The translations under genes and the position numbers were made by a program. A model generated the notes under the pieces. It was given only the letters and a program-made list of their open reading frames with translations, made no database searches and had not been told where the DNA came from. 64,000 nt of DNA from Chiloscyllium plagiosum (taxonomy: Eukaryota): contig NC_057719.1 in NCBI RefSeq assembly GCF_004010195.1, forward strand, positions 14,444,364 through 14,508,363. The letters run 5' to 3'. Of this stretch, positions 1,265-59,589 are shown piece after piece; positions within the stretch are counted from its first letter, which is position 1; each line of letters opens with the position of its first letter.

Positions 1265-1378
1265 TCATGATTTGGAGATGCCGGTGTTGGACTGGGGTGT
1301 GAGAAGCGGAGCTCCGAAAGCTAGTGTGCTTCCAATTAAACCTGTTGGACTATAACCTGGTGTTATGTGATTTTTAAC
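1265..1378. mobile_element. Short hammerhead-bearing repeat, family D fragment
   Basis: gctccgaaagctagtg...gttggactataacctggtg; homologous to 18433-18622 and 46740-46841. Confidence 0.7.
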
Positions 1379-2614
1379 AATAGACACAGTGACATTCTGA
1401 ACTCCCTATCCACACTGAGCAACGTCAATGCATCAGGCTATGTGTAACTTTGTCAGACTGGTTCTCTCACAACTAGGTTTGTGTGGGGCAAGCTCCAGCT
1501 CAGAGATAGTGTTTCAGTGCAGAAGGAAAGCCAGCATCCTCTGGCCAAGGAGGATGGCTTACATGTTGCTGTCTGGCCATGTGCTGCCTCAATGTCAGAT
1601 GGAACATGGCAAACAAATCACATGCTTAAAAACTGTGATAATGTGTGAAAGTCAAAGTGGACTTATTGGAGTTAGGTTGGGCTCCAATCAGTTGTGGTAC
1701 TTCCACAGTTAGTCCAGTGTTTGGGTTATTTCTAGTCTCAGGGCTTGGCTATGGTCAGTCAGGTGCCAAACCGGGAATCCACATCATTACAGTCTATGAG
1801 GTCGGGGCACAGTCAGATCCAGAATTTAAATGGAAGCAGCCAAGGCCTTCTTACAAGTCAGCCACCAGGATACTATTGTGAACTCAGTTTGGGGAATGGG
1901 CTGCAATTATTCAGAGCGGGGGGGGGGGGGGGGGATGGTGAAAGGTCAGTAGTGTCATACGAATCAAAAGGCATGAGGAGACATGTCAAACAGAGGGATA
2001 ATCTAGGGTTATGAATGCAAATAGAACCTTACCATATTGGTCCAAAATCAACTGCATGGAAATAACATTTCAATGTGGAGTAAAGAGCCTCTGGAGTGGG
2101 AGGGGTAAGTAACTGATTTTGGTTTGGGATGGTAGGGATGGGGTTTGGAGGTGGGGGAGGGCGAGTGCAGCACTAGAGTGTGAGGCCATCGCCACGGGGT
2201 AACTGACAGCAATCACCAAGCCTGCAGTGATTGAGCAATGCTATTCATCTGCATTCAATTCGCAGCTAATCTGGAAGTCATCATTCATCTGAACATCTGA
2301 TTCCAAAATGTAATCATGAACTAATCATTTGCAGTGCATTGATTGCCAGACTCAATGGAGCAAGGTACTCTCAACAACAACCTTGTCTTCCCAAAATGGC
2401 CAAGGGACAAAATCCCAAGGACTGCAAGCCAATGGATGAAAACTGCTATATCCGCATATCCCACAAGGAAAAACCAACAAAAATGGCAAGCGATACATCC
2501 TGAACTACCTTGTCTTATGCAATTGAAAATAGAGGATCAGGATGACCAATACATTCATATCTAAGTAGTACTGTCTGTTTTCTTTTTAAGCATTTCTCAT
2601 TTTTAAATACAATA

Positions 2615-3437
2615 GGTCAATGGGCTGAAAAATGGCAGATGAAGTTCAATCTGGATAAATATGAGGTATTGCAGTTTGGTACAACAAACAAGGGTGGGGC
2701 TTATACAATTAATGGTAGGGCCATGGGTAATGTTGTAGAACAGAGGGACTCAGGAGTTCAGGTGCGTAATTCTTTGAAGTTTGCGTCATATGGAGACAGG
2801 GTGGTTAAAAAGGTGCACTTACATTCATTGTTCAATTGTTTGAGTATAGGAGTTGGGAAGTCACGTTGTACAGGACATAGTGAGGCCCCTTCTGCAATAC
2901 TGTGTCCAGTTCTGGTCGCCCAATTATAGGAAGTATATCATTAATCTGGAGAGGATTCACAAGAGCTTTACCAGGAAGTTGCCAGGTATAGAAGGTTTGA
3001 GTTATAAAGAAAGAGTGGCTAGGTGGAGACGTTTTTTGCACTGGAGCGTAGAAGGTTGAGGGGTAACCTGATAGAAGTTTATAAGATAATGAGGTATAGA
3101 TATACTTAATGGTAATTGTCGTTTCCCTAGGATGGGGGGATTTCAAGATGAGAAGTCATATTTTTAAGGTGAGAGGAGAGAGATTTAAAAGAGACACGAG
3201 GGGCAAATTTTTACACAGAGGGTAGTTCACATGTGAAATGAACTTCCTGAGGAAGTGGTGGGTGTGGGTACAATTACAACATTTAAAGGACATTGGAATA
3301 AGTTTGTGTACAGGAAAGGTTTGGAGGGATATGGGCCAGGAGCAGGCTGGTGGGACTAGTTTAGTTTGGGATTATGTTCGGCATGGACTGGTTGGACCGA
3401 AGGGTCCGTTTCTGCGCTGTATGACTCTTTGACTCTA
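2615..3437 (+). mobile_element. CR1/HER1 LINE 3' fragment
   Basis: Peptides WQMKFNLDKYEVLQFG and VRPLLQYCVQFWSP; (ATGACTCT)-type tail. Confidence 0.92.
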
Positions 3438-3940
3438 AGACATTACTACCAAACAGAATGGAGAGGACTATTGGAATTTGACTGCATGGTAGCTTTGTTG
3501 AGTCACTTTACATGAGGTTAGGATATATCATTCGAATCTCTGGGAGCACAATAGGTTTAATTCCTTGTTTTGGCAACACACTGAATCTGTAACATTCAGC
3601 TTCATTACAAAGCAAACAGAGGGGTTTCAGGGCTCCGACATACCTTCAACGGCATTTGTTTAATCTCTCTTACCTTTTCTCATTGGGCATTTCAACTTAG
3701 GAATGAATGGCCAGAGTATCTGGCTGTGCTTCCAAAGGTGCTACTAATCCAATGAAACTGATGCAGAATACGGGAGAGTGAACATGTTCTGCGGGTCGCA
3801 CGTGAACAGAAGCCACGACTGGGTACTGTGCTGCAGCCAGAGGGAAAAGTGGCAGGACAAGTTCTACTGAGGAAATCAAAAGCTCCAACAGGCAATCGCA
3901 TCTACAGACTTTGGTGCAGCTTTCTGAAAATGACTTGTCG

Positions 3941-4090
3941 AGGAGAAAGTGAGGGCTGCAGATCAGAATCAAAGAGAATGGTGCTGGTAAAGTCCTGATG
4001 AAGGGCTTCTGTCCGAAACATCAACTCTCCTGCTCTTCAGATGCTGCCTGATCAGCTGTGCTTTTCTAGCACCACACTCTTCGACTCTGG
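3941..4090. mobile_element. Short inverted-repeat element, family A, with + strand hammerhead core at 3995-4022
   Basis: agtc CTGATGA agggc ttct gtcc GAAA ca tc aact. Confidence 0.75.
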
Positions 4091-4237
4091 AAATGACTGT
4101 CACCCAGTGCAGAAGGAAAGAGATGTTCCCAACCATCAGGTCATGTGGATGCCAGATACTGACCTGATATGGACCTGGTGGCAATCACATCCTGGTAACT
4201 CTCACCATTAATGCGGTTTTGTGTTTTTTTTTTAAAT

Positions 4238-4475
4238 AGGAGAAAGTGAGGACTGCAGATGCTGGAGATCAGAGCTGAAAAATGTGTTGCTGGAAAAGCA
4301 CAGCAGGTCAGGCAGCATCCAAGGAGCAAGAGAATTGATGTTTCGGGCATAAGCCCTTCTTCAGGAATGACCTTCCTCATTCCTGAAGAAGGGCTTATGC
4401 CCAAAACGGCGATTCTCCTGCTCCTTGGATGCTGCCTGACCTGCTGCGCTTTTCCAGCAACACATTTTTCAGCTT
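4238..4475. mobile_element. Fold-back element, family A, with two opposed hammerhead cores
   Basis: Arms 4272-4369 and 4378-4474 are near-perfect reverse complements. Cores at 4336-4364 (-) and 4383-4411 (+; GAAA mutated). Confidence 0.85.
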
Positions 4476-5135
4476 TTTTTTAAGTTGGCCATTTCAGAAA
4501 ACAATTGGATATCCTTGTGGTATTTCACATCCCTCAACCCACAAATGCATCTGGGGTGGACAGTGAGAACCTTGAGATACACCAAGACCAACATGGAAGA
4601 GAAGACAACACACCAAGTGGTTTAGAAATCTATAACGGCAGATTGAGCTTTATAGCTCTGTGCCACTAGGACATCTGTGCTAAATGAAGACCTTTTATTT
4701 ATAATTTTGTCATTTGAGCAATTGCAGACCGTCCTCTGCTTGGTGGAGCACAAATTTCGAAGGAGTTATCTTGCTGTTGCTGTTCATTATACTAGTTAGT
4801 AAAATGTTCAGTTCTTCATTTCAATGTGCATGTCACATACTCACTTGTATGAAAGCTAAGGTGCCTTGCTTGAGTCTAGAATTAGCAATACAAAGGGACT
4901 TCCATTACACTGTGCTCCAAGGTGTTTTTCCTAAAATTACCCTCGTGCCAAAGACATATGGATCCCATCTCGGAATGCATTTCTTCATGAGGATTGCCAA
5001 GGTGTCACTCATTCAGAGTTTGCTTCTTCAGAGCATTCCTTCAACATTATGCCTTCAAAACTCTGGTGCTCTAAGCCTTCACTAGACCCTTGCTAAGTCC
5101 AAGCATCCTCTATAACAGTGTTACAACTACAATGA

Positions 5136-5330
5136 TAGACAAGCAGGAGGCTGGAAGAACACAGCAAGCCAGGCAGCATCAGGAGGTGGAGAAGTCAACG
5201 TTTCTCCTGAAGAAGGGTTACACCCAAAACATTGACTTCTCCACCTCCTGATGCTGCCTGGCTTGCTGTGTTCTTCGAACCTCCTGCTTGTCTACCTTGG
5301 ATTCCAGCATCTGCTGTTTTTTTGTCTTTT
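5136..5330. mobile_element. Fold-back element (family A-related) with decayed hammerhead core
   Basis: Inverted arms tagacaagcaggagg... and ...cctcctgcttgtcta; central ctgaagaagggttacacccaaaac. Confidence 0.75.
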
Positions 5331-5344
5331 ACAAATACAAAGAA

Positions 5345-6182
5345 CTGGGTGTAGGTTTGCTCGCTGAGCTGGAAGGTTAGTTTTCAGACATTTCATCACT
5401 ACTAGGTAACATCATCAGGGAGACTCGAGATGAAGCACTTGTGGCATGGCCCGTTTTCTATTTTTGTGTTTAGGTTTCCTTGGGTTGGTGATGTTATTTC
5501 CTGTGGTGACATTACTTCCTGTTCTTTTTCTCAGGGGGTGGTAAATGGGATCCAGGTCAATGTGTTTGTTGATAGAGGTCAGGTTGGTAAACCATGTTTC
5601 TAGGGATTCTCGTGTGTGTCTCTGTTTGACTTGTCCTAGGATGGATGTGTTGTCCCAAAGTAGTGTCCTTCATCATCTGTATGTAAGGATATTAGTGAGA
5701 AAGGGTCATTTTTTTTGTGGTTAGTTAATGTTCTTGTATCCTGGTGGCTAGTTTTCTGCCTGTTTGTCCAATGTAGTGTTTGTTACAGTTCTTACAAGGT
5801 ACTTTGTGAAGGACATTAGTTTTGCTTGTCGTCTGTATAGGGCCTTTCAAGTTCATTAGCTGTTGTTTTAATGTGTTGGTGGGTTTGTGGGCTACCATGA
5901 TACCAAGAGGTCTAAGTAGTCCGGCAGTCATTTCTGAGATGTAGGGGAGAGTGGCTAGGATTTCTGGACGTGTTTGTCTGCTTGTTGGGGTTTATTGTTG
6001 ACAAATTGGTGGACTGTATTCATTTAATACACTGTATCGGTGATTTTCCTCTGCTCTACTTAGTTCCTCTGTGCTGCAGTGTGTGGTGGCAATAATGTTC
6101 TAATGCAGCTTCGTCACCACAGGAAATGACATCACAAACCCAAGGAAACCTAAACACATAAATAGAAAGCAGGCCATGCCAA
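5345..6182 (-). mobile_element. Penelope-like element 3' part with short inverted 5' piece
   Basis: GIY-YIG-like peptide NVLHKVPCKNCNKHYIGQTGRKLATRIQEH; hammerhead core at 5387-5418 (-); inverted segment 6113-6182. Confidence 0.9.
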
Positions 6183-14080: not shown

Positions 14081-16281
14081 CATGCAGGGATCAGGCGAAT
14101 CAACATTTTGGACATAAGCCCTTCATCTGACTTCCATGTTGGGAATTTTCAAAGTGTGTTTAATCCCTGACTTGATAAAATTGATGAGCTAAGGTTAGGT
14201 AATGATCCTAGTTACCAGGAATGAAAACCCTAGTTACTAGTGTCATTGAAGCACAGAATTGTCAGATCACAGAATGACGCCATTCAGCTCATCTTTCCTG
14301 CACTCGTTCGAATACTAGTGCCAATCTTCTTTTCCTCTATAACCCTGCGAACCATTTCTATCCAATGCTCTCTTGAACCTACCTTCACTATATTTCCAGG
14401 CAGTGCATTCCATACCCTAATTACTCGCTGTGTGAAAAAGTTTGTTTGTTTCTCATATCACTGTTCCTTCGATTACACATCATTTTAAATCAATGCCCTT
14501 TCATTTTGAATCCATTTCCAAGCAGGAACAGCATCTCCTTATCTACTCTATTCCCACCTGCTCATGATTTTGCAAACTTCTATTAAATCTCCTCTCAGCC
14601 TTCCACTCTCCAAAGAGAACAGTCCCAACCTCTTCAATCGATCCTCAAAATGGCAGTTTCTCATTCCTGCCTCAGGGTAGCAGCCACCCATGCCTCGTAT
14701 CTACAGATGTTGGTATCCAATAGGTATCCAGCCCGTCAATAACAATATGGTATACCTCCAATCCACTTATTGTGTGCTATGATACTATCATTCTGCACTT
14801 TGGGATGCATCAATAATTATATAATAGGATTATATAAATCCTCTTGCAGCTCAATAGTGGGAATCTCATCTCAATATGCAAAACTAGGTTGGAAAATGAG
14901 ACTTCTCACTACCAGCATCAGGTAGTGTAGGATTTCTCATGCAATTCTCCCAACTTTCTCACTATGGTCCACATCCTGATAAGATTCCACCTAATGTGCC
15001 TTGCAACACCTCACAGGCATTATGAAGTCTTCAACATTTGAAATTTAAGAATTATCCTCATGGTGCACACTGCATAGCCCATCAGATCATTTTATTCCAC
15101 TTAATCCAAAGAGGTCCTCAGCTGGAGTTGTCTATTCATATCCCATTTGACTGCTCTTCTGTGGCAGTTTTCCGCTATAAATTCTTACCCAATGATAATT
15201 GATGTCGTTGTCCTGGTCATGTTATGAGAATTCTCCCAAACCCCTGCACTTAACGATAGGGCACTCTTAGAATTACCAGGAACAATCATAAATAATGTTT
15301 ACAGCCACAGGATGGTGTACAGAGCAAATCAAACAGAAGGGACCAGAAGCTAAACTTGAAGAAGCAAATAATAATCAGTGAGAGAATTGGGAGTCCCTAT
15401 CTGAGGATGCTCAGGATCCAGATCTCTGGTTTAAAAATGAAAATGATGGATTGGGAAGAGTTTATGGCACAATGTAATGTTACTCAAGTAATCCAGACAC
15501 TCAGGTCAATGCTATGGGATCAATTGATGCAAGTCCTGCCAATGGCAACCAGTAAAGTTTAAACTGGTTGTTTATAAAAGCCCATCTGGTTCATTAACAT
15601 GCTTTAGTGAAGGATATTTTTCATCCTCACCTGGATTGCCTTCGACATGCAAGGTTATGTCATTAGCATTGTCATTGGCCAGATCCTACCTGCCCTCTGA
15701 AATGACCCAACAATCCACTCAGGTTTGGAATAAATGGGAAATGCTGGTCTTGTCAGTTATGCCTATAGCCCAAGGAGGAGTCAAATAATAAATATGTGGA
15801 GCCACTAAAAATGTTTCTAAAAACGTTATTTTATGTGAAAATACATGGGACTCTAAGTCTGTACTATAAGACCAGAAGAAATGGGAACAGGAGTAGGCCA
15901 TTCAGCCCCTCAATAGGATCATGGCTAATCTGCCATCCCCCATGTTCTCTTTCCTGCCCTTTTCCCAAAACACATGATTCCCTGACTGATCAAGGTTATG
16001 TCTACCAGAGTCTAAAAAATATCCTGCAACACTCTCTGAGGCAAAGGGTTCCAAAGACTCTCAGCCCTCAGAGAGAAGAAATCCTCATCTCAGTATTAAA
16101 CTGGTGCCCCTTTATTCTGAGACTATGCCCTCTGGTCCTAGACTCTCCCATGTGGGGAAGCATTTCCTTAGTATTTGCTCTGTCAAGTCCCTTGAGAATG
16201 CTGTGTATTTCAAAGAGAAATTATGATAATGTGCTTAAAGTAATCCAATCCATCCTGTGTGCCAGCTACAGGACAACTAAG

Positions 16282-16635
16282 TATGCAAGTTAACTCAGTG
16301 AGCTGGAAGGTTTGTTTTCAGACATTTCGTCACCACGCTAGGAAACATCAGTGAGAGTCTCCGGTGAAGCACTGGTGGTATGTCCTGCCTCGCTATTAAT
16401 AGGTCTTGGTTTCTTAAGGTGGGTGATGTCATTTCTGGTTGTTTTTTCAAGAGAAGGTATATTTCTTACCTTAAGAAACCAAGACCTATAAATAGAGAGG
16501 TGGGATATACCATCCGCGCTTCACTGGAGACTCACACTGATAATGTTACCTAGTATGGTGACGAAACATCTGAAAACAAACCTTCAAGCTTACTTACCAT
16601 CAACCTGAGCTACAAATCTTCTCAAAAATCACTAA
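16282..16635. mobile_element. Non-autonomous Penelope-like element made of two inverted pLTRs
   Basis: Inverted arms ~16300-16419 and ~16470-16590 with decayed hammerhead cores; flanked by the 13-bp duplication acaggacaactaa. Confidence 0.85.
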
Positions 16636-16867: not shown

Positions 16868-18398
16868 TGAGTTTTGAGAAGATTTGTAACTCAGGTTGAG
16901 GTTATAGATGTAGATTTGCTCGCTGAGATGGAAGGGTCATTTTCAGGCATTTCGTCACCCTACTAGGTAACATCTCAGTGGGCTCAGGTGAAGCAATGCT
17001 GAAAATTCCTGCTTTCTATTCATAAGTTTGGGTTTCTTTGGGTTGGTGATGTCATTCCCTGGAGTGATGTTATTTCCCGTGGTGAAGTCACTTCCAGTTC
17101 CTTTTCTCAAGGTTTGGTAGACAGGGTCTAACACGATGTGTTTGTTGATAGAGTTCTGGTTGTGATGCCATACTTCTAGGAATTCTGGTGCGTATCTTTG
17201 TTTGGCTTGTCCTAGGATGGATGTATTGTTCCAGTTGAAGTGGTGTCCTTCCTTATCCGTATGTGAGGATACTAGTGAGAGAGGGTCATGTCTTTTTGTG
17301 GATAGTTGGTGTTCATGTATCCTAGTGGCTAGTTTTATACCTGTTTGTCCAATGTTGTGTTTGTTACAGTCCTTTTCACAGTATTTTGTAAATGACATTA
17401 GTTTTGCTTGTTGTCTGTGTAAGGTCTTTCAAGTTCATTAGCTGCTGTTTTAGTGTGTTGATGGGTTTGTGGGCTACAATGATGCCAAGAGGTCTGAGTA
17501 GTCTGGCAATCATTTCCAAGATGTCTTTGATGCAGGGGAGAGTGGCTAGGGTTTCTGGACGTGTTTTGTCTGCTTGTTTTGTCTGCAGCTGCATCAGAAC
17601 ATTAATTCAACGAGCCAGCAGAAAGGAACTACGCAGAGCAGAGGAAAATCACCTGTACAGTGTACTCAAAAATAAAGGTACCCAATGAACACAGTCTGCA
17701 GAGTTCTCAGCAACAAATCCAAACAAGCAGAAAAAACACGTCCAGAAACCCTAGCCACCCTCCCCTACTTCAAAGACATCTCGGAAATGACTGCCAGACT
17801 ACTCAGACCCCTTGGCATCATTGTAGCCCACAAATCCAGGAACACACTAACACAGCAGCTAATAACTTGAAAAACCGAACACAGACAACAAGCCAAACTA
17901 ATGTCATTTACAAAACACCGTGCAAGGACTGTAACAAGCACTACATTGGACAAACAGGCAGAAAACTAGCCACCAGGATACACGAACACCAACTAGCCAC
18001 AAAAAGATATGACCCTAATTTACTAGTACCCTCACATACAGATGAGGAAGGACACCACTTCAACTGGGACAACACATCCATCCTTGGACAAGTCAAACAA
18101 AGACATGCACAAGAATTCCTAGAATCATGGCATTCCAACCGGAACTCTATCAACAAGCACATCAAGTTAGACCCTGTCTACCACCCCCTGAGAAAAGGAA
18201 CAGGAAGTGACTTCACCACAGGAAATAACATCACCACAGGAAATGACATCACAAACCCAAAGAAACCCAAACATATAAATAGAAAGCAGGAATTTTCAGC
18301 ATTGCTTAACCTGAGGCCCACTGAAGATGTTATCCAGTAGGGTGACAAAATGTCTGGAAATGAAACTTCCAGCTCAGCGAGCAAACCTACATCCAAAC
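16868..18398. mobile_element. Penelope-like insertion with two inverted 3' halves
   Basis: GIY-YIG peptides on both strands (16955-17398 -, 17660-18340 +: NVIYKTPCKDCNKHYIGQTGRKLATRIHEH...FLESWH); 11-bp TSD gtaatcagtaa (16857-16867, 18399-18409). Confidence 0.93.
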
Positions 18399-18432
18399 GT
18401 AATCAGTAACAACCTTGCTGAATCAATGTAAG

Positions 18433-18622
18433 GAGGATGTGGAAGTGCCAGTGTTGGACTGGGTTGGATAAGGTCAAAAATTGCATGACACCAAGTTATA
18501 GTCCAACAGGTTTATTTGAAACCACTAGCTTTCAGAGTACCTGATAAAGGAGCAGTGTTTCAAAAGCTAGTGATTTCAAATAAACATGTTGGACTATAAC
18601 CTGGTGGCATGTGATTTTTGAC
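18433..18622. mobile_element. Fold-back element, family D, with decayed hammerhead core
   Basis: Inverted arms ttatagtccaaca/tgttggactataa; central cctgataaaggagcagtgtttcaaaagctagtg. Confidence 0.75.
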
Positions 18623-18624
18623 AA

Positions 18625-19700
18625 TGTAACAAAAGCAGTAGACATGGGATTGTAAATGGATGCTATTAATAGCAGCGATAATGCATTAAAGTAAGTCCCA
18701 CACAAGATACTATTCGCTGAAATTGAAGCTTATGGAATTGAGGACAAGCCATTAGCCTGTACGGGAGATAGTCTCAGTGGATAGAGGCATAAGTGTACAA
18801 ATTGACTGTGTGTGACTAGTAGAATCCCTCAAGGGCTTGCCAAAACCTCAATTATTTGCTATTTATTAATGACTTAAACCAAATCACACAGCAATCTGTC
18901 AATGATATAACGATGTGGCATTGCAATCAACTGCACATGGAATATATAAATTTACAATCCTGTTTAAAGAAATATAAGGTTTGGTAATGACAAACAGATT
19001 TCATCTGAGGCAGTTGCAACATCATCCACTTTTGGATGTAAACTGAATGATCAAAATACTGTCAGCTTGCACTCAGTTAGCTTCTACAGAGATGCCAAGA
19101 ACTTTCCAAGTGGTGAAAATTACAAGCAGTGGAGGCGCACAGAAACTAAAGAGTCCTTGTGTGTAGATTGATGAAATTTCACAGCTAGGTACAAAACATA
19201 TTCATAAACGGTAAATAGGATGGCCCTAGTTAGATTGCACCTTGAGTCCTGCAGGTTCTTGACAGCATACATTAGGAAAAGGACCTCTGGCTTGGAGGGA
19301 ATGCAACACAGCTCTATCAGAATAATAGGCTATTGCCAAAAACCAGATCAAAGACTATGAGTAAAGACGGCTAAGGGGTTTTGGTCTAGGTTTCTGAACA
19401 TTAAGAGGAACAGATAGGGACATAGATTGACAAAAACAATTTTTTCAAACAATTGAATCTGACTAAAATTTCAAAACATTTCTGGACTTAAAGAGTGGTG
19501 GAAGTTTGGGACTCTCATCCACAAGCAGGAGTTTTTCCTAGGTCAATTGTCAACTTCACACCCAAGACAGAAAGATTTCTGTTAAGAACATAGGAGATAT
19601 ATATGTGACAAACTGCAGTATATGGAGGCAAGCTATAGATCAATTCTGACATCGTTAACTGCAAAACAAAATGCAGAGAATAAATAACTTACTGTGATAC
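18625..19700 (+). mobile_element. Highly decayed CR1-like LINE
   Basis: Residual RT and 3' motifs (aagtcccacacaag, atttttattaatgactta, gttagattgcaccttgagt). Confidence 0.55.
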
Positions 19701-19778
19701 ATGATCAACGTTTTATGAGTTGACTTTCTTTATTCCTTATTTTTCTTTTCATTATGCGAGTTACAAATAATACCCTAC

Positions 19779-40355: not shown

Positions 40356-42254
40356 TGTTGCTGAAGAGCTCTGGAGTTGTTGGAGCCAAGTAGAGAGAAT
40401 TAGATTTTGTGAAGGAACAGTTAAGCAACCATGCAGCTGACCTACAATTCTCCAAACCAGGAAGTGGACAGAGTACATTGAGTTTATGTTGGATTATGCT
40501 CCAAAGTCTGAGCGAGGATTGAAATAAAGGGCATGTGGAATGGTGAGTAAGAGGAACACAATGGCAAACTGTGCCAGATCAGTGGCTGTCAGTGGATTAG
40601 TTAAAGACCTCAGCAGAGATTCCAAGTTCAACATGGCTTGTATAATGCAAATTTAAAAAAAAAACGTTCCCCCAGAATATTTCAGTTACTCAGGAATTAG
40701 ATTTGAGTTCAGCAGAATGTGGGCTTTTAAACTGACCCTACCATAGTTAAGTCCTCAGAAATGGTATGTTCTATTCCACTGCATGGTAGTTCAGTGGTTA
40801 GCACTACTGTCTCACAGCACCAGGAATCTGGGTTCAATTCCAGCCTTGAGTGACCATCTGTGTGGAATTTCCACATTCTCCCTTTGTCTGCATTGATTTC
40901 CTCTGGGTGCTCCAGTTTCCTCCCATAGTCGAAAGACTGTGCAGGATAGGTGGATTGGCCATACTAAATTACCCATAGGGTCCAGGAATGTGCAGGGTTA
41001 GCCATGGGAAATGCAGGGTTATAGGGACAGGGTGGGGTCTGGCGGGATCTCTTCAGACAGTCAATATGCACTCGATGGGCTGAATAGCCTGCTTCCACAC
41101 TGGAGGGATTCTATGATTTCTGATCAACTGCTAGCAATGATACTTGATTTAATTCAACTCCTAAAAAAAAAGGTAAAAAGAAAAAAAAAGTCAAACTTAC
41201 TGTTTCTGGATAACTGAAGCATTATTTCTGTATTTTGCAAATAATTTGCATGAACAAAATATGTATTGTTCCTTTGCTGGTGGGCAGATTTCTTCCTCCA
41301 AGAAATTAACAATCCAGAAAAATAACTAAAAAAAAAGAACTCAAAAATCATCATTGCTCCAGAGCGCTGGCGATGTTGGAACTTAATTGAGAAAATTAGA
41401 TTTTGTGCAAATTAGTTGTTATGTAGAAAGTGGCTGCTGGCACCAAAGACTGGATGGAGTGCATGAGATCTACATCAGGTTTATAGTGGCCGATGTATTC
41501 AAACAATGTACTGTTGCAAAATTCTTTTTATTTCTTTGCCACAGCTATTTTAATTAAAAAAACTCAAACATTCTTCACCTCAATGGGTTTCTTGTTGTCA
41601 CCCCTATTTACAATAATGTGGTGCAAGGTCTGTGATGTATATGTTCTCCTCATCTGATTTATTTTAGAATTGGCAATTTGAACCAGTGACATGTAGTTTT
41701 TTGTCTGTGTGTGTGTGTGTGTGTATTTTTTGAGGAGGTTTAACGATTACATTGTCACTATTTCTGGAGCCATGATATTTTTAAACTATTTTCAGAGACA
41801 CAGGAACAGGACATAACCAGTGCATTCCTGTCCACTGTCAATTATAAGAAGATACAAATGTCAAAAGAAACATCTGTTTAAATGTGAAAATACAAATTCA
41901 AGCTTCCCAAAAATAAGTCCGTTTCAGCTTTCAGAATAGATATCATGGAACAAACAGCACAGCAACCCAGAAATGCTCATTTCAAAAAGCACAGGACTGA
42001 AGAACAAATTCAAAATCAACATGAAAACACATTGTGGTGTCTTATGAATATTCATTTAAATAATGTCCAGTTTGTAGCCCAATTATAGCTAGGTGGTTCA
42101 AATCATGTTATAAGAAACAGATATCAAAATATGTCACATAGCCAATCACAATATAACCACACAAATATTCAATACTCAAGACCATTATAGCAGACTCTTC
42201 TGCTCCTCGGACCCTGCCTGACTGGCTCTGCTATTCCAGCACCACACTTTCCAT

Positions 42255-43528
42255 CTATATTTTAAGGTCACATTGCAGCTGTTCAGGACATTGGTTAGGC
42301 CGCTTTTGGAATGTTGTGTGCAATTCTGATCTCCTTCCCATAGGAAGGATGTTGTGAAATTTGAAAACGTTCAGAAAAAATTTACAAGGATGTTGCCAGG
42401 GTTGGAAGGTTTGAGCTATAGGAAGAGGCTGAACAGGCTGGGGCTGTTTTCCCTGGAGCGTTGAAGACTGAGGGGTGACCTTATAGAGGGTTACAAAATC
42501 ATGAGGAGAATGGATAGGATGAATGGACAAGATCTTGTCCCTGGAGATGGGGGAGTCCAAAACTAGATAGCATAGGTTTAAGGGAAGAGGAGAAAGATTT
42601 AAAAGGGATCAAAGGCATGCTTTTTTTCACACAGAGGGTGGTGTGTGCATTGAATGAACTGCACGAGCAGGTGGTGGAGGATGGTTCAATTACAATATTT
42701 AAATGGCATCTGGATGGGTATATAAATAGGAATGGTTTAGGGGGATATGAACCAAATGCTGGCAAATAGGCGTTAATTTATATAGCATATCTGGTTGGCA
42801 TGGACGAGTTGGATCAAAGGGTGTTGTACATCTCTATGACTGTATGACTATAAAATAAAGAACAAAAACTACCAAGAGTTGAGAACAGTTCCACACATGA
42901 AACTAACAAGCAACCTGCTTGTCAATGAAACAGTGAAATACTTTGGATGCTAGAAATCTGAAACAAATGCAGAATGTGAGAGAAACTCAGTAGGTCTGGA
43001 AGCATCTGAGGAGAGAGAAACAGAGTTAATGTGTCAAGTCCGCTATGAATCTTCTTCAGAAGAAATTAATCAGGATGTTGCCGGGAATGAAGGATTTGAT
43101 AGACAACGAGAGGCTGGAGAGGATGGGACTTTCACTGGAGCATTGGAGATTGAGGGGTGACGGTATACAGGTTTATTAAATCGTGAGAGGTATATATAAG
43201 GTGAATGGTAGGTGTCTTTTCTCTGGGGTGGGGAATTTCAAGACTTGGGAACATATTTTTAAGGTGAGAGGATTAAAATTTTAAAAATACATGAAGGGCG
43301 ATTTTGTTTTACGTAGAGAGTGGTATTGTGGGAAATGAACTTCCAAAAGAGGTAGCAGGTATGGGTACAGTTACAATGTTTAAAAGGCATTTGGTTCAGT
43401 TCATGAATGAGAAAGGTTTTGAGGGATATGGGGCAGGAGCAGGCAGGTGGGACTAGTCTAGTTTGGGATTACAGTTGGCATGAACTGGTTGGACTGAAGG
43501 GTCTGTTTCTGTGCTGTATGACTATGAC
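42255..43528 (+). mobile_element. Two CR1/HER1 3' fragments (~42255-42850, ~43070-43528)
   Basis: ggttaggccgcttttggaatgttgtgtgcaattctg; tail ctatgactgtatgact. Confidence 0.88.
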
Positions 43529-44868: not shown

Positions 44869-45049
44869 CTGGATGGTGAAAAACAAAATCAAATTCAGGC
44901 TATATCTCTAGCTTAAGAAATCAAACCACACAGTGCACTGTAATTAAAAACATTTGAGGCAGGTGACAACTTTACTCAGAAAAAAAGATTCAAAGTAAAA
45001 GGTTTGCAGTTATACATAAAGAACAAAGAACAGTCCAGCGTAGTAGCAA

Positions 45050-45255
45050 ATTATTGCAGATACTAGAATCTGTACTGGAAGCAGCAAATGCTGGCGATCA
45101 CAGCATGTCAGACAGCATTCACAGAGAGAGAGAGAGAGAGGACAAGCTAATGTTTCAAGTCTAGATCACTCTTCTTCAGAGCACAGCTTAGCTTGCTCTC
45201 TCTCCACGGATGCGGTCTGACATGCTGTGATCTCCAGCAGTTGTTGCTTTCGGTA
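45050..45255. mobile_element. Fold-back element, family B, with hammerhead core at 45146-45182 (-)
   Basis: Reverse complement reads gct CTGAAGA agagtg atcta gactt GAAA ca tt agc; inverted arms. Confidence 0.75.
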
Positions 45256-45257
45256 AA

Positions 45258-45775
45258 GAACAGTACAGCACTGGAACAGGGCCTTTGGCCCACCAGGCCT
45301 ATTGCAATACACGATGCCTTTCTAAACTAAAATGTTATTACTTCTAACGTTATTCATAACGCTCTATCCCCCTATTCATACATCTGTCAATGTTTCTCTT
45401 TAACATTTCTATCGTATCTGCTTTTACCACCTCCTCTAGCAGCACACACTAGGCACTTACCAGCCTCTTAAAACAAAAACTTGCTTCTCACATCTCCTGA
45501 AAACTTCTGCCCTTTTATCATAAATCTATGTTGCCTGGAAATTGCTATTCTACTCTGGAGAAAAAAAAGACTTTGACTATCCATGCTATCCACCACTCTC
45601 ATAATGTTGTAAACTTCTATCAGGTCACCCCTCAGCTTTCGAGATTCAAATGAAAGCAAACCATGGTTGTTCAATCTGTCCTCATAGCTAATACCCTTCA
45701 AACCAGGTAACTTCCCAGTAAACCTCTCCAAAGCTTCCACATCTTTCTAGTCTGGTGACCTGAACTGCACGCAGT
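45258..45775 (-). mobile_element. CR1 LINE 3' fragment
   Basis: LERFTGKLPGLKGISYEDRL...LRGDLIEVYNIMR. Confidence 0.88.
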
Positions 45776-46842
45776 AAGAATATCAGAAACACTTCACAAA
45801 GGCCTTTAACAAACCAAAGAATTGTGGAAACACTGATCATCGTCTGATTTGTTTTTGATCTGATTTATTGCAGTCACATGTACCTAGGTACAGTGAAAAG
45901 TTTTGTTTTGTGAGCAGTGCAGGCAGATCATAGCAAATAAGGACATATTGATCATAGGGTGCTTAGACAGAGCGAAGCATATGGGTTATAGCTAGACAAA
46001 GCAAGATCAACATTATTTGAAGTTAGAGAGGTCCAATCAGCAGTTTAGATTCCCTACAGACTGGAAACAGGCCCAACAAGTCCACACCGACCCTCCGAAG
46101 AGTAACCCACCCTGACCCAACCCCCTGATTAATGCACTTGAAACTATGGGCAGTTTAGCGTGGCCAATTCACCTGACCTGCACAACTTTGGATGGTCAGA
46201 GGAAACCGGAGTACCCAGAGGAAACCCATGCAGACACAGGGAGAATGTGCAAACTCTAGCTGTGGAGAGAGAATCAGAGTTAATATTTCAGATCCCTAAC
46301 TCTACATCTCTCGTCACATGCTTCTGCACCTGATCATTTTCAGTACTTTTTTTGTTATTATTTCACGTTTCCAGCATTTAGAGTATTTGGCTTTTGCTCT
46401 TCGTAAAATTTGCCACTGGTGAACTTTTCCGATTTTGATATGCTTACATTTTTATTGTGGGGGGATGGGATGGTTTCAAAAACATTCTTATTAAATTGTG
46501 GACCCCTGTAAATTTTAATCGCTCCATTTAAAATGGAGAGGGAATTAGAAATAGATATCAGGGCTAGATGATCAGGTGGATAAAACTAAAGAAAATCCAA
46601 AGGCATTTCAATACACATTAAATAAGTATTAAGCAAAAGAGGATAACTAGGTACAGAGTGACGCCCATTAGGCCCCTAAGTGGCAGACTGTGGGTACAGC
46701 CAGAAGATATAGGTGAGGGTACTTCACATTTGCATTCACTCGATGAAGGAACAGTGCACTGAAAGCTTGTGATTTTAAATAAACCCCATTGGACTATAAC
46801 GTGGTGTTGTATGACTTCTGACTTTGTCCACCCAGTCTAACA

Positions 46843-46945
46843 TTTCCTGATGAAGAGCTTATGCTCGAAACATCAATCCTCCTGCTCCTCAGATACTGCC
46901 TGACCAGTTGGGCTTTTCCAGCACCACATCCTTCGACTCTCCACA
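46843..46945 (+). ncRNA. Family A half-element with well-preserved minimal hammerhead core (46847-46874)
   Basis: CTGATGA a gagc ttat gctc GAAA ca tc: canonical core nucleotides and a perfect 4-bp stem II. Confidence 0.65.
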
Positions 46946-47309
46946 TCATAAGTTTGTATTCACAGCAGAGAAGGAAGATGTATTTATAGAAATCAAAGAG
47001 AACTCTGATATACTTGAGCAAATCACAGCTGAAGAGGAGGAGGAGGAATTAGTGGTTTTAACAGAATTAAAATTGGGTAAGTGTCCTCGCCCAAGATGAC
47101 ATGTATGCCAGGTCAAAAGGTAGAAATCGGAAACACGCGCTGAGAATGATCCTGGTTTCTTCAGAAGAGATAGCATTTTAAGACTGGTATGACTTTTCAG
47201 TTCAGAACCGAATATACCAGGCTCAAAATATTAACCCTGTATTTCTCTCTTTGCAGATGCTGCCAGACCTACTGAGTTTCTCCAGCATTTTCTGTCTGCT
47301 TGTATTCCT

Positions 47310-52300: not shown

Positions 52301-53415
52301 AATTGGCTGAAAGCTGGCACCTATAATGGTGGGGAATGTCAGGAGGACTCCTAACCAGAGATGATTGCAAACTCATCAAAATTGTCTTTTGCATGGGTAT
52401 ATTAGACTCCTCCATCATAAAGGATGTAGCTGTTGATGAAGCTTATCCTCCTGTTAGTTGTTTATCCTCCAGCTCCATTTGTGGGGATGTGACAGGACTG
52501 CAGAGCTTTAATTTGATCCTTTGGCTGCGGTATCACTTACCTCTTGACTGTCATAGGATATGTCTGCTGTTCAGAATGCATGTAGCCCTGTGTTCTGGTG
52601 CCATCACATTGGTACCTCATTTGCAGGGAAGACGGTTTCTGGCATGTTCTCCAACACTTATCCTTGAACTAAGGCTGGTCCTTCAGCTTGTTAGAATTAA
52701 CAGATGGAAGGATATTCTAAGCTTTGAGTTTACAGATAGTAACAGATAGTCTACAGATAGTAACTTCTGCTGCTGTCTGTCAAAACTGGGACAGTGGGTT
52801 TTCCCACAAAAATAGTAAAGCAACAATCTGATGGACATTAAAGTCCTAATGCAGAATATACTGTGTTACTTATTGTCCAAAATGCTACTTTCAAGTCATA
52901 TTGAGGAGCTCCAATACATCAGCACAGTTGGTGGTGGTTGGTGATGGAAATCACCAGGAAGAGTTCTTGCCCATGTTTTACTGAAGCCACGAGACTTAAA
53001 AAGATCTGTCTTGAGGAAGGAAAAGTTCCTCCAAATTTTCTAACCACTATGCTCCATCTCTGGTGAGTCTCTACTGACCCAGGGCATAGGACATGTCCAA
53101 GGGATGATGATGGGGGAGTTTGGGGTCTTGGTTGTGAAAGGTGTGACTTGGATTCATGTCATGGTATTAATCATGAGACAAAGGAGCAGAAATTAGGCCA
53201 TTCAGCACATCGAGTCTGCCCCACTACTAGTTCGACTAGTTTTAACTAACTGGTTTGTGGGACAGCTCTCCTAATTTTGACACAAGTGAGGAAGACATTG
53301 CAGAATTGACTAATGAGCAGTATTTTGGCATGCGTTTTTCTCATGTTTGTTACCTGAACCAGTGCTGAGTGACCCGTTCAGTTTTATCCTAATTCAATTT
53401 TGTTGTAGCAGTTTG

Positions 53416-53570
53416 AAAGTGAGGACTGCAGATGCTGGAGATCAGAGTCAAAGAGTGTGGTGCTAGAAAAGCACAGCCGGACAAAGGGCTTATGCTCAAA
53501 ACGTCGACCTTCCTGCTCCACAGATGCTGCCTGACCTGCTGTGCTTTTCCAGCTCCACACCCTTCGATTC
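53416..53570. mobile_element. Family A element with 12-bp TSD
   Basis: tgtagcagtttg at 53404-53415 and 53571-53582. Confidence 0.85.
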
Positions 53571-54204
53571 TGTAGCAGTTTGTACACATGAGTAGCTTTT
53601 GTTAGAAATGCATAGATTTATAGGTTTTCAGTAACTGGAATATGGAACCACTTGAACACACCAGGTGAAGAGAGATTTACAATGTGATTTACTGGAAACA
53701 AAAAAAAAGTTAAAAAAAGGTCAAAGAGAAGGTGGTTACCCACCGTTCGTAGAAGCCGACTCTGAGGAAAGAATGTCCAGCTAAGCTTTTAAAAAGGAAA
53801 GATGAAAGATGGATTTCGATAAGACTTGAAGGAACCCTTCGATATGTGCTGTAGTTTACCAGGCAACAGTCCCTGATCTAAAGGTACATTTTCAGCACAT
53901 ACCCAAGTGTGGTAGTTGAGGAAACTTTGCTGTGCTCTCTCTCTTTCTCTCTGTCAGTAAGAGAATAATGCTGAAAGCAAAAAAAAAGCTAAATAGACCT
54001 TTCCCTGGTGAAGTTGTGTGAAAAATCTGATAACATTTCATTAGTTAGATCTTGGTTTACCATCCACATCTGAAATCTAATCAGAGGACCCCTTCCAGAA
54101 TTCTACAACTGTCAGAAAGTGGATGTAATCAAAGGAACTGTGAAAAGTAATTCCAACTTCTGAACTCTTACCCTGGACTTAAAGGGCCATTGTTCTTTCT
54201 AGTG

Positions 54205-54660: not shown

Positions 54661-56176
54661 GATAGCTCTGCAGAGCTGCCATGTTACATCTCCATACCAA
54701 TGAGTGCGTGAAATTAGGGAAATACAGTTGAATGGGGAGAAAGTGAGGTCTGCAGACGCTGGAGCCATGTTACATCTCCATACCAATGAGTGCGTGAAAT
54801 TAGGGAAATACAGTTGAATGCCACAGTATCTTAATCAATAACTGATTTTGCTACTTATTTTAAAAGGGCTTATTTCTTAACGAACTAATTAACTTTAAGT
54901 TTCTTGAAAAACAAGTCTCTTTTGTTCTAGATAATAGTAATGAACAAATTGACCATTCTTGGTGATTAAAAATAATCACTAATTGGAGCTTGATTGCTTG
55001 CACACTCCTCCCATTACGCTAAGTGTTTTCATAGGGTAGTTAAGGGTCAACTTAAAGGTCAATTGCTAAGAGTCTGGACTCAGCTGTAGGGAAAGACTGA
55101 ACAATTGCCTTCCATATAATACATTTATGAACTAAATGAGTTTTTAACAACAATTTGGTCCTCATTACTGAGGGAAGCAGTTTTAACCTAGCTTTATTTT
55201 AATAAATTCCTCCATCTGCCATGCTGAGATGTGAAATCATAGCTCCAGTGCATCTGAGTTACCAGCCCTGTAAAATAAATTCCTACTAAGCTACCATACT
55301 GGAAAAAAATAAACCAAATGGAAAGCAAAACTGATCCCAGCGGCACAAAAGTACTGTAGATGCTGGAAGTTTGAAATAAAAACAGAAAATGCTGAAAATA
55401 CTCCGCAGGTCAGACAGCAGTGTCTGACATCAGACAGAAACAGAGTTAGACACATGCAGGTATCATGGGCTGAATGGCCTCCTTTTACAGGCATAAGCAA
55501 GGCCTGACAGCAGGCTCAGTGATTAGAACTGCTACCTCACAGCAGCCGGTTCGATCCCAGTGTTGGGGGCACTCTGCATGCAGTTTGCACATTCTCTCTG
55601 TATCTGTGGGGATTTTCTCCCACAATCCAAAGAGGTACTGGTTAGGTGGATTAGCTGTGAGAAATGCAGGGTTTTGGGGTGGTTCTGGGTGGGGGTTGCT
55701 CTTCTGCAGGTCAGTGTTGACTCGCTGGGCTGAATGGCCTGCTTCCACACTGTAGAGATTTGAGAAATTCCTGCAATATTCCACCAGATGTGACCAATTA
55801 AAAACAGTGGACTGACTTGCAAGAAAAGAGTGACCCCTTGTGGAAGACATGCCAAATGGGCCAGTGAGGCATGTCTTGTTGTTACAGCCAATGAGGCAGG
55901 TCCAGGCAACTCGGGCAGTGAACACTGTTGTGGTGATGCAGGGCCACATGGGAGGCTATAACTACCGTTAGCTCCTCCTCCTTCCATGGAGCCTTCAGAA
56001 AAGAAAGGACCTTGAGAAACTGAGCAAGTGATTAAGTGATTGAGCAAGTAATGGGATGACAAGAGAAATTTAACATAAACATAAGGAGGCTTCAAATCAT
56101 ACAGGGCATCAGTGAGACCACATCTCAAATATGGTATACAGTTCTAGTCTCACTTAATTAAATGTTGACTAAATAG

Positions 56177-56911: not shown

Positions 56912-56917
56912 TAGGTA

Positions 56918-57128
56918 CAGGTATCCCCCGCTATGCGAATGTTTGCTTTACGCTATTTTGTTTTTACAAAAGACCTACATTAGTACCTGTTTTCACAAAT
57001 CCAGAGAGGATTTTTGCTTTTATGAAAAACGGTGATACTTCTTACCATATAAATTAAGCGTTCCACCATTTTTGGCTTACGATAGGTTTCCTGGGAATGC
57101 TGTACTTTCGGATAGCTGGAGCTACCTG
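56918..57128. mobile_element. pogo/Tigger-like MITE
   Basis: Imperfect 22-bp TIRs CAGGTATCCCCCGCTATGCGAA / TTCGGATAGCTGGAGCTACCTG, flanked by TA on both sides. Confidence 0.8.
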
Positions 57129-59091
57129 TATCTAGAATGAACAGTTGTCTTCTGAAAAAATATTGGACAGACCAGGCTGGTTTCTACTGGAGTTTCAAAA
57201 GATGAGAGGCGATTTGATTGAAACATAAAACATTCTGAATGGTCTTGAATGTGGAAAGGGTCATTCCTCCAATAGGTAAGTCTGAAACTAGTGGACGCTG
57301 TTATAAAAATTAACAGCTGTGCTTTAAGGATAGGAATGAGGGAAGTTTCCATTTCCCTCAGAGAGTTGAGAGATTTTGGAATGCTCTGCCTCAGAGGAGG
57401 TGAATGAATGGTCATTGAATATTTTACCGGCATAGGTAGAAAGATTCCTGATTGGTGAAGGATGAGGGGGTGGGAGGTGGCAAATGAGTATCTGGGCTTC
57501 AAGACACTGAATATATCATCCTTCCTCGGGCAACTGACTGTGTGGAGTTTGCATGGGTTTTCCTCGAGGTGGTCCAATATCCTCCCACAAGCCAAAGATG
57601 TGCAGGTTAGGTGGATTGGCCACACTAAATTGACAATAGCTTCCAGAGATGTGTAAGTTAGGTGCGTTAGCCATAGGAAATGCGGGGTTATGGGAGTTGG
57701 GTCTAGGTGGGATGCTGTTCAGGAGGGTCGGTGTGGTGCAATGGGCTGAATGGCCTGCTTCCACACTGTCAGGATTCTATTATTCTAATATCTATGATCT
57801 TACTGAATGATGGGAGTAGGATGAAAGGGTCAAGTGGCCTTCTGCTGCTCCCAATTTGAATGAAACCATTAGGGAACTAGAGGAGTCCCTATGTAGCACA
57901 GGGCCAGTCTGACTCTGCTAAAATGCCAGCGGCCTGATAGAATGGCCATCCAGAGGTTAATTAATGAAATAAATGAGTAACCTGGCTCCAGGTAGCAAGT
58001 AGCCAAACTGCAGAGTTCCCATCATGAGTGGGAGCTCTCCCTTGTGGCATAAAGAGGTTGGACTTTTCTCCCACATCACCATTTTACCAACTCCTCTGTC
58101 TTCCATCAGCTAATGAAATACCAGCCCACATTTCAGCAAGGTGACATTACTTCAAGATATTTCTGTGTCCAACATTGCAGAGATCCCAGCAGCACTGCAA
58201 AAACACAACCATTTGCCCTTCACATAATTTCTTGTCAATCTTTAAAGAAATAACCTTCTGTTTTTAGAGCAATGTCCACTGTCCATTTCATCTGTTGTAG
58301 TTAGTAAAGACATATGTCACTTTTATTACAGTCGCAGAATGATTTACTCTGCACAAATTGTACTTTGTTGTTATTAGCATCGACTGAGTAGCACAAAATA
58401 TCATCCAGAACAGTCACATTTTGAGTCGAGTTTTGATTCATTTTTGCTCAAAATACTTTTTGATTGGCTTTCCAGCTGTTATTAAAGCCAACTTGTTAAA
58501 AAAATTCAAATCATTGCTGCAATAAATAATACCATATGCTCTCTTTTATGACTTATTTTTTTACAAGAGCTGAAAACAGCCTCAATAAATTTACAGATAA
58601 ACAGACAACATTGCAACCCACAGAAAATTAAAGATTCTTTTCAGGTACAATGGGCTAGAATTTGCTTTCCCCCAAGTTTTGGGTTGGGGGCAGGGGTTAA
58701 TGATTCGCAACCCGCTTCTACTCACTGAAATAGAGATGGACTTATCTCTGTCTACCCACTTCATTGGGCTAATAGTAGCGTTGAACAAAGCAGCTCCTTC
58801 GCTGCCCTGTTGAACTTTACAGTTTCCGCACAGAACGAGGGAGCTTGCCAAAGCTTTTTGGCGCTCTCGCCTTTCAAGCAGTCTGGTCCGATCAAAATAA
58901 AAAGGCTCCTTGCCTCATTAAATTGAGAGATTCTGCACCTGAAGATCGTGGCAAAACGGGAATTCATTTTGAAGCGCTGGAAGGACATCAGGATGGTCGA
59001 GGGAAGGGGGAAGAACAAACAGGAGCACATTCTTTGGGAGGAAAATGCCCTGTGTTTGGTGCCAGTGTCCTGACAACCTGATTTAAGCAGG

Positions 59092-59194
59092 AAATGTAGG
59101 GGTATGGGTGGGTTGCGCTTCGGCGGGGCGGTGTGGACTTGCTGGGCTGAAGGGCCTGTTTCCACACTGTAAGTAATCTAATCTAATCTAAAAA
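59092..59194 (+). mobile_element. 5'-truncated HE1/HER1-type 3' end with 78-bp flanking duplication
   Basis: ggtgtggacttgctgggctgaagggcctgtttccacactgt followed by (TCTAA)n and an A run. Confidence 0.9.
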
Positions 59195-59414
59195 AACAAA
59201 CAGGAGCACATTCTTTGGGAGGAAAATACCCTGTGTTTGGTGCCAGGGTCCTGACAACCTGATTTAAGCAGGTGGATGAAGGCATTCCCACAATCCACTG
59301 TTGCTCATTATACCAATAAAGGTCTCACTCTGCTCAACGAATTACATTGGAATGATCCTGGTATGGAGGGATTGTTTTATGTAGAAAAGCTATATAAGTT
59401 GGAATCCTAATCAC

Positions 59415-59589
59415 AGTCAAAACGTGTGGTGCTGGAAAAGCACAGCCGGTCAGGCAGCATCCGAGGAGCAGGAGTGTCGATGTTTCGAGTGGAAGCTCTT
59501 CATCAGGAATGTGGAGCTAATGAATATGCTTTTCCAGCACCACACGTTTTAACTCTGATCTCCAGCATCTGCAGTCCTCACTTTCTCCT
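59415..59589. mobile_element. Family A element with hammerhead core at 59478-59506 (-), nested in CR1
   Basis: Reverse complement reads CTGATGA a gagc ttcc actc GAAA ca tc gac; terminus ctgcagtcctcactttctcct. Confidence 0.8.

What the first reader, a model, noticed from the sequence alone, without database searches (positions are those of the whole stretch)
1265..59589. At least five repeat families share a minimal hammerhead ribozyme core with different stems
Seen: more than 20 short repeats contain CTGANGA-stem II-GAAA-NN-TH or decayed versions. The core stays fixed while stem II differs by family: A GGGC/GCCC or GAGC/GCTC (3995, 4336, 4383, 21618, 46847, 59478); B GAGTC/GACTC-like (20930, 45146); C GGGTC/GACYC (28322-28395, 32085-32130); D GGAGC/GCTCC (1310, 18541); PLE-type GTTACC/GGTGAC (5387, 16537, 16950, 18322). 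Stem III collapses to a palindrome (ACGT or AGCT in the least-decayed copies). Known: PLE pLTRs carry minimal type I hammerheads thought to act as dimers. Inference: families A-D are non-autonomous PLE or retrozyme-like elements, so the shark genome may hold a very large, under-annotated ribozyme repertoire.
Basis: partly seen in the sequence, partly recalled or inferred. Interest (0 to 1): 0.72.

Follow-up and report, generated by a model that had tools for sequence, protein, structure and literature searches.

The report
Penelope transposon ends carrying mini hammerheads
These short repeats are mostly decayed end pieces of several Penelope-like jumping genes, each carrying an already described miniature hammerhead (predicted self-cutting RNA) motif; the kind is known, but the genome holds at least 86,000 intact-core copies, and their sharp left edge likely marks the capped start of an RNA that was copied uncut.

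Summary
The window has 36 repeat arms from six families; 21 span the whole hammerhead. None of 14 examined keeps both an intact core and a palindromic stem III.

The interpretation needs correcting. Families A-D are not separate non-autonomous or retrozyme elements. They are 5'-truncated pLTR ends of protein-coding Penelope-like elements: GIY-YIG or RT coding sequence lies upstream in longer genomic copies, and one D copy is pLTR-ORF-pLTR. Head-to-head pairs, one-sided tails and target duplications are the published PLE signature.

Stems I and II, the stem III palindrome and, in a seventh family, the core 3-8 pair all covary, so the fold was selected in the source lineages. Seven exact patterns give 86,726 genomic hits; sampling suggests about 200,000.

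Left ends cluster just before CUGA, not at the cut site, with an excess untemplated G. One family is polyadenylated about 30 nt past the cut site. No cleavage was shown.

The scan's earlier notes report this kind of finding many times (390 notes, 33+ genomes). Verdict: new members of a known kind.

The parts
1277..1378 (.). Family D insertion; + arm 1302-1391 starts inside stem II (no CUGANGA half), preceded by a short inverted piece
3991..4087 (+). Family A pLTR end, perfect core letters, stem III decayed (ACAT), short 3' end
4238..4474 (.). Family A head-to-head pair: - arm with tail (core at 4364), + arm without tail (core at 4383, G12 to A); T-rich target duplication
5128..5297 (.).
5338..6100 (-). 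Poseidon-type PLE 3' fragment: frameshifted GIY-YIG coding sequence, then hammerhead with core at 5418
14081..14127 (-). Short decayed family A piece
16279..16591 (.). Poseidon-type head-to-head pLTR ends (- arm 16279-16354, + arm with core at 16537)
16874..18400 (.). Poseidon-type inverted pair of 5'-truncated copies; the + arm encodes 159 aa of GIY-YIG C-terminus (17861-18337) ending at the hammerhead (core at 18321); about 11-bp target duplication
18442..18628 (.). Family D head-to-head pair; + arm core at 18541 has G8 and G12 changed to A
20666..20950 (.). Family B head-to-head pair split at its centre by a nested family A insertion (about 20776-20922)
21521..21649 (-). Solo family A (A2 subtype) end with tail, starting 2-3 nt before CUGA; G12 to A; flanked by a short duplication
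28227..28462 (.). Family C head-to-head pair, both cores decayed
31983..32208 (.). Family C head-to-head pair, both arms lacking the CUGANGA half
39111..39199 (+). Family A piece downstream of the ribozyme
42193..42261 (+). Family A piece starting near the cut site
42927..43060 (-). Decayed family C end
45038..45268 (.). Family B head-to-head pair; - arm core at 45179 has perfect core letters, stem III decayed
46737..46929 (+). Decayed family D end followed by a family A end (core at 46847, stem II GAGC/GCTC)
47226..47300 (+). Family C piece
53413..53571 (.). Family A head-to-head pair with about 10-bp target duplication
55346..55448 (-). Family C piece without ribozyme
59410..59590 (.). Family A pair; - arm core at 59506

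Best explanation
The repeats are 5'-truncated end pieces (pseudo-LTRs) of at least six families of protein-coding Penelope-like retrotransposons, each carrying a minimal type I hammerhead motif that is predicted to cut as a dimer, and most were likely made by target-primed copying of the first 85-130 nt of a capped, uncut transposon RNA. Shown here: upstream GIY-YIG/RT coding, a pLTR-ORF-pLTR copy, two discrete right ends about 40 nt apart, head-to-head pairs with one long and one short arm, target duplications, left ends piled just before CUGA. Taken from the literature: the PLE protein nicks both DNA strands and starts reverse transcription at two internal sites near the ORF start, and uncut RNA is the main substrate (PMC11167929). 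Inferred: each nicked strand primes from one of the two sites and runs to the RNA 5' end, which lies at the first base of hammerhead stem I; this gives solo stubs or palindromes centred on the ribozyme. The fold was under selection only in the active source lineages; inserted copies decay and are transcribed passively inside host RNAs.
For: Coding link: A (L011, L025; L122, L126; tail runs into an ORF with the DKG motif in L279), B (8 of 30 loci with endonuclease motifs 260-550 nt upstream; RT upstream in L139), C (L107, 1 of 30), D (L130 pLTR-ORF-pLTR; L085, L131, L133), E (about 5 of 20), PLE-type. Reverse test: 14 of 29 scorable endonuclease hits have a B- or A-type hammerhead 190-370 nt downstream, and many of the rest have the U3-A8 family F motif. 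Right ends bimodal at about +85-90 and +120-127; 48 of 50 inverted pairs join one long and one short arm; duplications of roughly 7-16 bp. These match the published tail, inverted copy and TSD (PMC8557442 and PMC3846280 passages). Covariation of stem I, stem II and the palindrome across families; U3-A8 swap in family F, 1,795 exact copies. Left ends: 34 of 65 A1, 18 of 28 A2 and 17 of 33 D arms start at -9..+8, but only 1 each within 3 nt of the cut site. Base before the left edge: G 2,990, A 1,014, T 815 genome-wide, where the element's own base is C (26 of 26) and background G is 0.20. TATA-like boxes at -32 to -39 in B, C, D and F. After insertion the core is no better kept than flanks (A p=0.054, D p=0.62; G12 already A in 26 of 136 A arms and 9 of 30 D arms).
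Against: No transcription start, cap or cleavage was measured. Family A has no clear TATA box. The C-to-coding link rests on one locus. [quoted passage not shown] No intact full-length ORF was recovered (many long copies run into N stretches). The G excess could partly come from palindrome centres or an unseen subfamily. Arms of one insertion were counted separately in the junction statistics. The slight core excess in A (p=0.054; p=0.001 in older copies before matching base type) is not zero.
Confidence: 0.85

Rival explanations
1. A-D are independent non-autonomous elements (SINE-like or retrozyme-like) that are transcribed on their own, processed by their hammerheads into monomers or circles, and mobilised in trans by PLE proteins.
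For: Most copies are short and start at one point; RNA reads are concentrated on the short region; animal retrozymes are reported to derive from PLE pLTRs (bioRxiv 10.64898/2026.07.22.740005, parts 1-3 read); short stubs could be re-copied in trans.
Against: Longer copies of the same families carry the ORF. No head-to-tail arrays of these units in the window. Copies keep the sequence 5' of the cut site and almost never start at it, which a cut-to-cut monomer would not do. A-family reads are on both strands and 92% run on into unrelated sequence, with no shared start or end.
Confidence: 0.07
2. The short pieces are PLE ends, but the left-edge pile-up comes from the integration chemistry (reverse transcriptase stalling or fold-back at the hammerhead or RNA dimer, or microhomology joining at the palindrome centre), not from a capped RNA start; long copies come from cleaved, circularised RNA as proposed by Cervera and De la Pena.
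For: Many hot-spot arms are in inverted pairs; published fold-back or self-priming explanations of PLE inversions exist (PMC3846280 passage); the circle model is published (PMC4209133); D junctions are spread over -9 to +22.
Against: A stall would be expected at the 3' side of the fold, not at its 5' base (inference). Solo copies with a target duplication and internal partial-tandem joints also start at the same base. The G excess remains with G excluded at the next base. TATA spacing fits in four families.
Confidence: 0.3
3. The inserted copies form a functional host ribozyme repertoire that cuts host pre-mRNAs.
For: About 60 strict-descriptor motifs per Mb in a spread sample (23 in 381,679 bases); copies are present in polyadenylated RNA reads on both strands.
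Against: No post-insertion protection of the core; window copies are decayed; no pile of read ends at the cut site (although such libraries are poor at showing this); published minimal hammerheads are inactive as monomers, weak as dimers (PMC4209133) or need the PLE protein (PMC11167929); the head-to-head pairs place the two motifs on opposite strands, so one transcript carries only one sense motif and forms a hairpin instead.
Confidence: 0.08

Closest known systems
[quoted passage not shown]
   Same: Type I core with no helix III beyond a palindrome, one unpaired base between positions 9 and 10.1, G10.1-C11.1, short helix I, several families per genome, mostly solo or opposite-strand copies from truncated PLEs, and a U3-A8 core variant.
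   Different: The parts read name fishes, coelacanth (about 4,000), Xenopus (about 9,000) and reptiles, not sharks. Here seven exact patterns give 86,726 hits. Helix II is 4-5 bp in A-F, shorter than the 7-8 bp in Schistosoma.
Neptune/Nematis-type and Penelope/Poseidon-type EN+ PLEs (Craig et al. 2021, PMC8557442, passages read)
   Same: C-terminal GIY-YIG, DKG motif, 5' truncation, inverted 5' copy, 30-40 bp tail on one end. B, F, D and A-type ORFs have the CX2-5CxxC linker; the PLE-type family lacks it.
   Different: Clade names are assigned here by motif only, not by phylogeny.
PAc, Poseidon element of Anolis (Frangieh et al. 2024, PMC11167929; parts 1-2 of 4 and passages read)
   Same: Hammerhead near the ORF start, two reverse-transcription start sites matching the tail, both strands nicked and extended, uncut RNA as substrate.
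   Different: In PAc the ORF starts inside the hammerhead; in D it starts at about +121 and in A later. A fixed 5' edge with an extra G and a poly(A) site are not described in the parts read.
Non-LTR retrozymes (Cervera and De la Pena 2020, PMC7229834, passages; Li et al. 2026, bioRxiv 10.64898/2026.07.22.740005, parts 1-3 of 5)
   Same: Type I hammerheads needing dimers, very high copy number (126,247 in axolotl), PLE pLTR origin; one chondrichthyan was sampled in the preprint.
   Different: Retrozymes are non-coding head-to-tail arrays; these are dispersed solo or head-to-head ends of coding elements.

Membership tests
Minimal type I hammerhead (PLE min-HHR) | CUGANGA and GAAA core with UH at the cut site | tested here: met
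   Met in genomic copies of all families; broken in most window copies
Minimal type I hammerhead (PLE min-HHR) | Helix II with G10.1-C11.1, one unpaired base at 9/10.1, covariation between families | tested here: met
Minimal type I hammerhead (PLE min-HHR) | Short helix I flanking the core | tested here: met
   3-4 pairs, different sequence in A, B, C, D, E, P
Minimal type I hammerhead (PLE min-HHR) | Palindromic 15.1-16.1 tetramer allowing a dimer | tested here: met
   ACGT in A, B, C, E, P, F and AGCT in D genomic copies; 2 of 14 window copies
Minimal type I hammerhead (PLE min-HHR) | Self-cleavage as dimer or with PLE protein | not testable with these tools
   No read-end peak at the cut site, but these libraries cannot settle it
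EN+ Penelope-like element | RT followed by C-terminal GIY-YIG in the element that bears the repeat | tested here: met
   A, B, D, P clearly; E by endonuclease motifs; C by one locus. Pfam hits weak.
EN+ Penelope-like element | pLTR-ORF-pLTR or partial tandem | tested here: met
   D in L130; A 5' pLTR running into ORF in L279, L254, L256
EN+ Penelope-like element | Inverted 5'-truncated copy, optional 30-40 bp tail on one end, target duplication | tested here: met
Neptune/Nematis clade | CX2-5CxxC linker before GIY-YIG | tested here: met
   B, F, D and an A-type copy; not seen for C and E because the loci were too short
Neptune/Nematis clade | Placement in an RT tree with named references | not tested
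   No reference PLE proteins were fetched
Non-LTR retrozyme | Head-to-tail tandem array of hammerhead units | tested here: not met
   No such array in the window; pairs are head-to-head. Genome-wide arrays were not searched.
Non-LTR retrozyme | No protein-coding parent sequence in the unit's family | tested here: not met
Non-LTR retrozyme | Abundant unit-length linear and circular RNA | tested here: inconclusive
   No shared starts or ends in one poly(A) single-cell run; that library type would miss circles

The most novel reading that the evidence does not exclude
The pLTR of these elements is laid out like a retroviral U3-R-U5: TATA box upstream, capped start at the first base of hammerhead stem I, and (in family D) a poly(A) site about 30 nt past the cut site. 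The tens of thousands of hammerhead stubs would then be integrated 'strong-stop' cDNAs, and full-length copies and pLTR regeneration would come from a template jump between the two R regions, with the hammerhead or its dimer bringing the RNA ends together or trimming the 3' end. This would answer the stated open question of how pseudo-LTRs are regenerated and what the PLE hammerhead is for.
Probability: 0.3. Interest if true: 0.65.

Novelty: new member of a known kind. Interest (0 to 1): 0.3.

Why it matters
The motif and its carrier are known since 2014, so the finding itself is ordinary. Two points are worth keeping. First, scale: at least 86,726 exact-core hits and an estimated 130,000-310,000 strict motifs, in the range of the 126,247 reported for the far larger axolotl genome; my literature searches found no count for cartilaginous fishes. 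Second, the copy number gives statistical power on an open problem, the role of the hammerhead and the origin of pLTRs in PLE transposition: the genomic ends predict a capped start at the ribozyme's first base, copying of uncut RNA, and paired priming from two sites, each testable by 5'-RACE, end sequencing or the existing in vitro PLE assay.

Tried and rejected
Rfam scan: no hammerhead family hit, only chance miRNA-like hairpin hits on the palindromes. One-mismatch motif count is not clearly above shuffles, so significance rests on perfect cores and family homology. First core-versus-flank tests were confounded or wrong: mixes subfamily variation with decay and favours alignment edges; one search's flank window was mis-set for A1 and one search's D core was off by one; one search is the corrected test. 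Pfam did not reach curated cut-offs on any ORF piece. Same-strand hammerhead pairs 2-4 kb apart were mostly unrelated neighbours, not full elements (L126 has a different repeat between the first motif and the RT piece). No RNA holder on record was listed for the A stretch; run X20 laid no reads; contig-type runs cannot show starts or ends. Family F is absent from the window. MITE/DNA-transposon reading of the palindromes was rejected: arms are unequal, centres vary, duplications are long and variable, and arms continue into a retroelement ORF. Literature searches for strong-stop or start-site models of PLEs found nothing relevant, and the library lacks many subscription papers; supplements of the papers were not read and may hold shark examples.
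Full report
Observation. Perfect cores with a stem II number 5 in the window against 0.2 in shuffles; the one-mismatch count (17 against 7.7, max 16) is not decisive alone. Profiles built from genomic copies find 36 arms in six families, 21 spanning the whole ribozyme. The window's copies are old: of 14 parsed, none has both an intact core and a palindromic stem III, and only one passes a strict descriptor. Several listed positions are half motifs (1310, 20930, 32085-32130). Rfam finds no hammerhead here.

Scale. Exact patterns in the own genome (3.56 Gb) give A 54,284, D 19,835, PLE-type 8,901, F 1,795, C 987, E 552 and B 372, 86,726 in all, each with 0 control hits. In 40 stretches spread over large contigs (381,679 non-N bases) a strict descriptor found 29 motifs, 23 with at least 3 of 4 stem I pairs; 10 shuffles gave 1 hit in total. 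That extrapolates to about 205,000 (130,000-307,000) for 3.4 Gb. The 200 kb next to the window had 9 and 5.

What the repeats are. The PLE-type family sits directly after GIY-YIG coding sequence in the window itself (17861-18337 and about 5500-5900 on the minus strand). For A-D I took 30 genomic loci each. Longer copies continue upstream through a shared 3' UTR into endonuclease coding sequence: A in L011, L025, L122, L126; B in 8 of 30; C in 1 of 30; D in L085, L131, L133. L130 is a D element with pLTR, an ORF with DKG and RT motifs (frameshifted, endonuclease deleted) and a second pLTR 2.5 kb on. The A end runs on into an ORF start with the DKG motif (L279). In the reverse test, 14 of 29 scorable endonuclease hits had a B- or A-type hammerhead 190-370 nt downstream; many others had a seventh family, F. 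B, F, D and an A-type ORF carry the CX2-5CxxC linker that marks Neptune/Nematis; the PLE-type family lacks it, as Poseidon does (definition from PMC8557442 passages). Pfam hits are weak, below cut-off. A, B, C and E share downstream sequence and are branches of one lineage; D and the PLE-type family are separate.

Insertion anatomy. Using copies that were not selected for their ribozyme, right ends fall at about +85-90 or +120-127 from the C of CUGA. 48 of 50 head-to-head pairs join one long and one short arm, and many are flanked by duplications of roughly 7-16 bp (the finder is crude and misses some). This is the published PLE signature of inverted copy, one-sided tail and TSD (PMC8557442, PMC3846280 passages) and fits the two reverse-transcription start sites and two-strand priming shown in vitro for an anole PLE (PMC11167929, parts 1-2 read).

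Is the fold real? Between families the core is fixed while stem I, stem II and the stem III palindrome change in a compensated way, and position 17 is never G. Family F has U3 and A8 in place of C3 and G8 (22 of 23 rows, 11 of them from loci found through the endonuclease rather than the motif), the same core covariation reported for Schistosoma (PMC4209133). So the catalytic fold was selected in the source lineages. After insertion the core is not clearly better kept than matched flank positions (A 11 of 544 against 42 of 1,088, p=0.054; D 4 of 120 against 17 of 360, p=0.62), and G12 is already A in 26 of 136 A arms and 9 of 30 D arms.

Left ends. 34 of 65 A1, 18 of 28 A2 and 17 of 33 D arms begin at -9 to +8, about ten times the per-base rate of most other zones (four times for D), and only one in each set begins within 3 nt of the cut site. 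Reads from a poly(A) single-cell run carrying the same species label as the best DNA holder show loose ends at the same base (99 reads at L126:1466). That base is the A of an initiator-like word, about 30 nt after a TATA-like box in B, C and F; D has a TATA box at -37 to -39; A has none that is clear. Following a lead from earlier scan notes I tested for a cap-derived G: genome-wide the base before the A1 edge is G 2,990, A 1,014, T 815 times, with G excluded at the next position to avoid most palindrome centres; the element's own base there is C in 26 of 26 longer copies. This supports, but does not show, a capped start and copying of uncut RNA. Penelope of D. virilis also starts inside its pLTR, but from a TATA-less internal promoter (PMC2377424 passages).

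RNA. For A, 2,209 reads lay on both strands, 92% ran on into unrelated sequence, and no shared start or end appeared: passive transcription of many copies. For D, 499 and 407 of 3,195 reads carry a poly(A) tail on the element's sense strand at +61 and +58, 12-15 nt after an ATTAAA at +41 and in sequence that is not A-rich. ORF coverage was at most 6 against 500-1,400 on the pLTR, in a 3'-biased library. These polyadenylated molecules run through an uncut hammerhead; cut products would be missed by this library, so this is no evidence against cleavage. Whether they come from the element's own promoter or host genes is not known.

Verdict. Known kind: minimal hammerheads in PLE pLTRs. Searches for a published cartilaginous-fish count or a strong-stop model found none, within a library that lacks many papers; supplements were not read. 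The scan's own index holds 390 similar notes from at least 33 genomes; these are unchecked and are not counted as support. The organism label 'shark' was not tested.

Noticed in passing
L159, L168, L171-L186, L301-L310 (not in the window): A seventh PLE family (F) with a compensated U3-A8 hammerhead core, a clear TATA box about 30 nt upstream and 1,795 exact copies; a natural control for whether the fold is needed.
   Followed up: partly
L130:5931-5934 (family D, +58 to +61): Family D ends supply a used polyadenylation site in sense orientation (about 900 reads in one run). With some 20,000 young copies this could end many host transcripts early.
   Followed up: partly
window 20666-20950; also L066/L067, L087, L107: PLE ends are often nested inside other PLE ends (A inside B, D or C), sometimes at the palindrome centre, hinting at targeting of pLTR sequence.
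   Followed up: no
L253, L257, L258, L261, L265, L280: Copies where the ORF start jumps back to the same left-edge base of a second pLTR, forming short partial tandems.
   Followed up: partly
window D1-D14 repeat families, e.g. 12380-13028, 34177-34246, 47977-48241: Abundant fragments that look like CR1-type LINE 3' ends and an associated SINE tail (names recalled, not tested).
   Followed up: no
L121, L125-L128, L136, L138: Long copies of family A usually run into N stretches, so full-length young elements are under-represented in what could be read.
   Followed up: no
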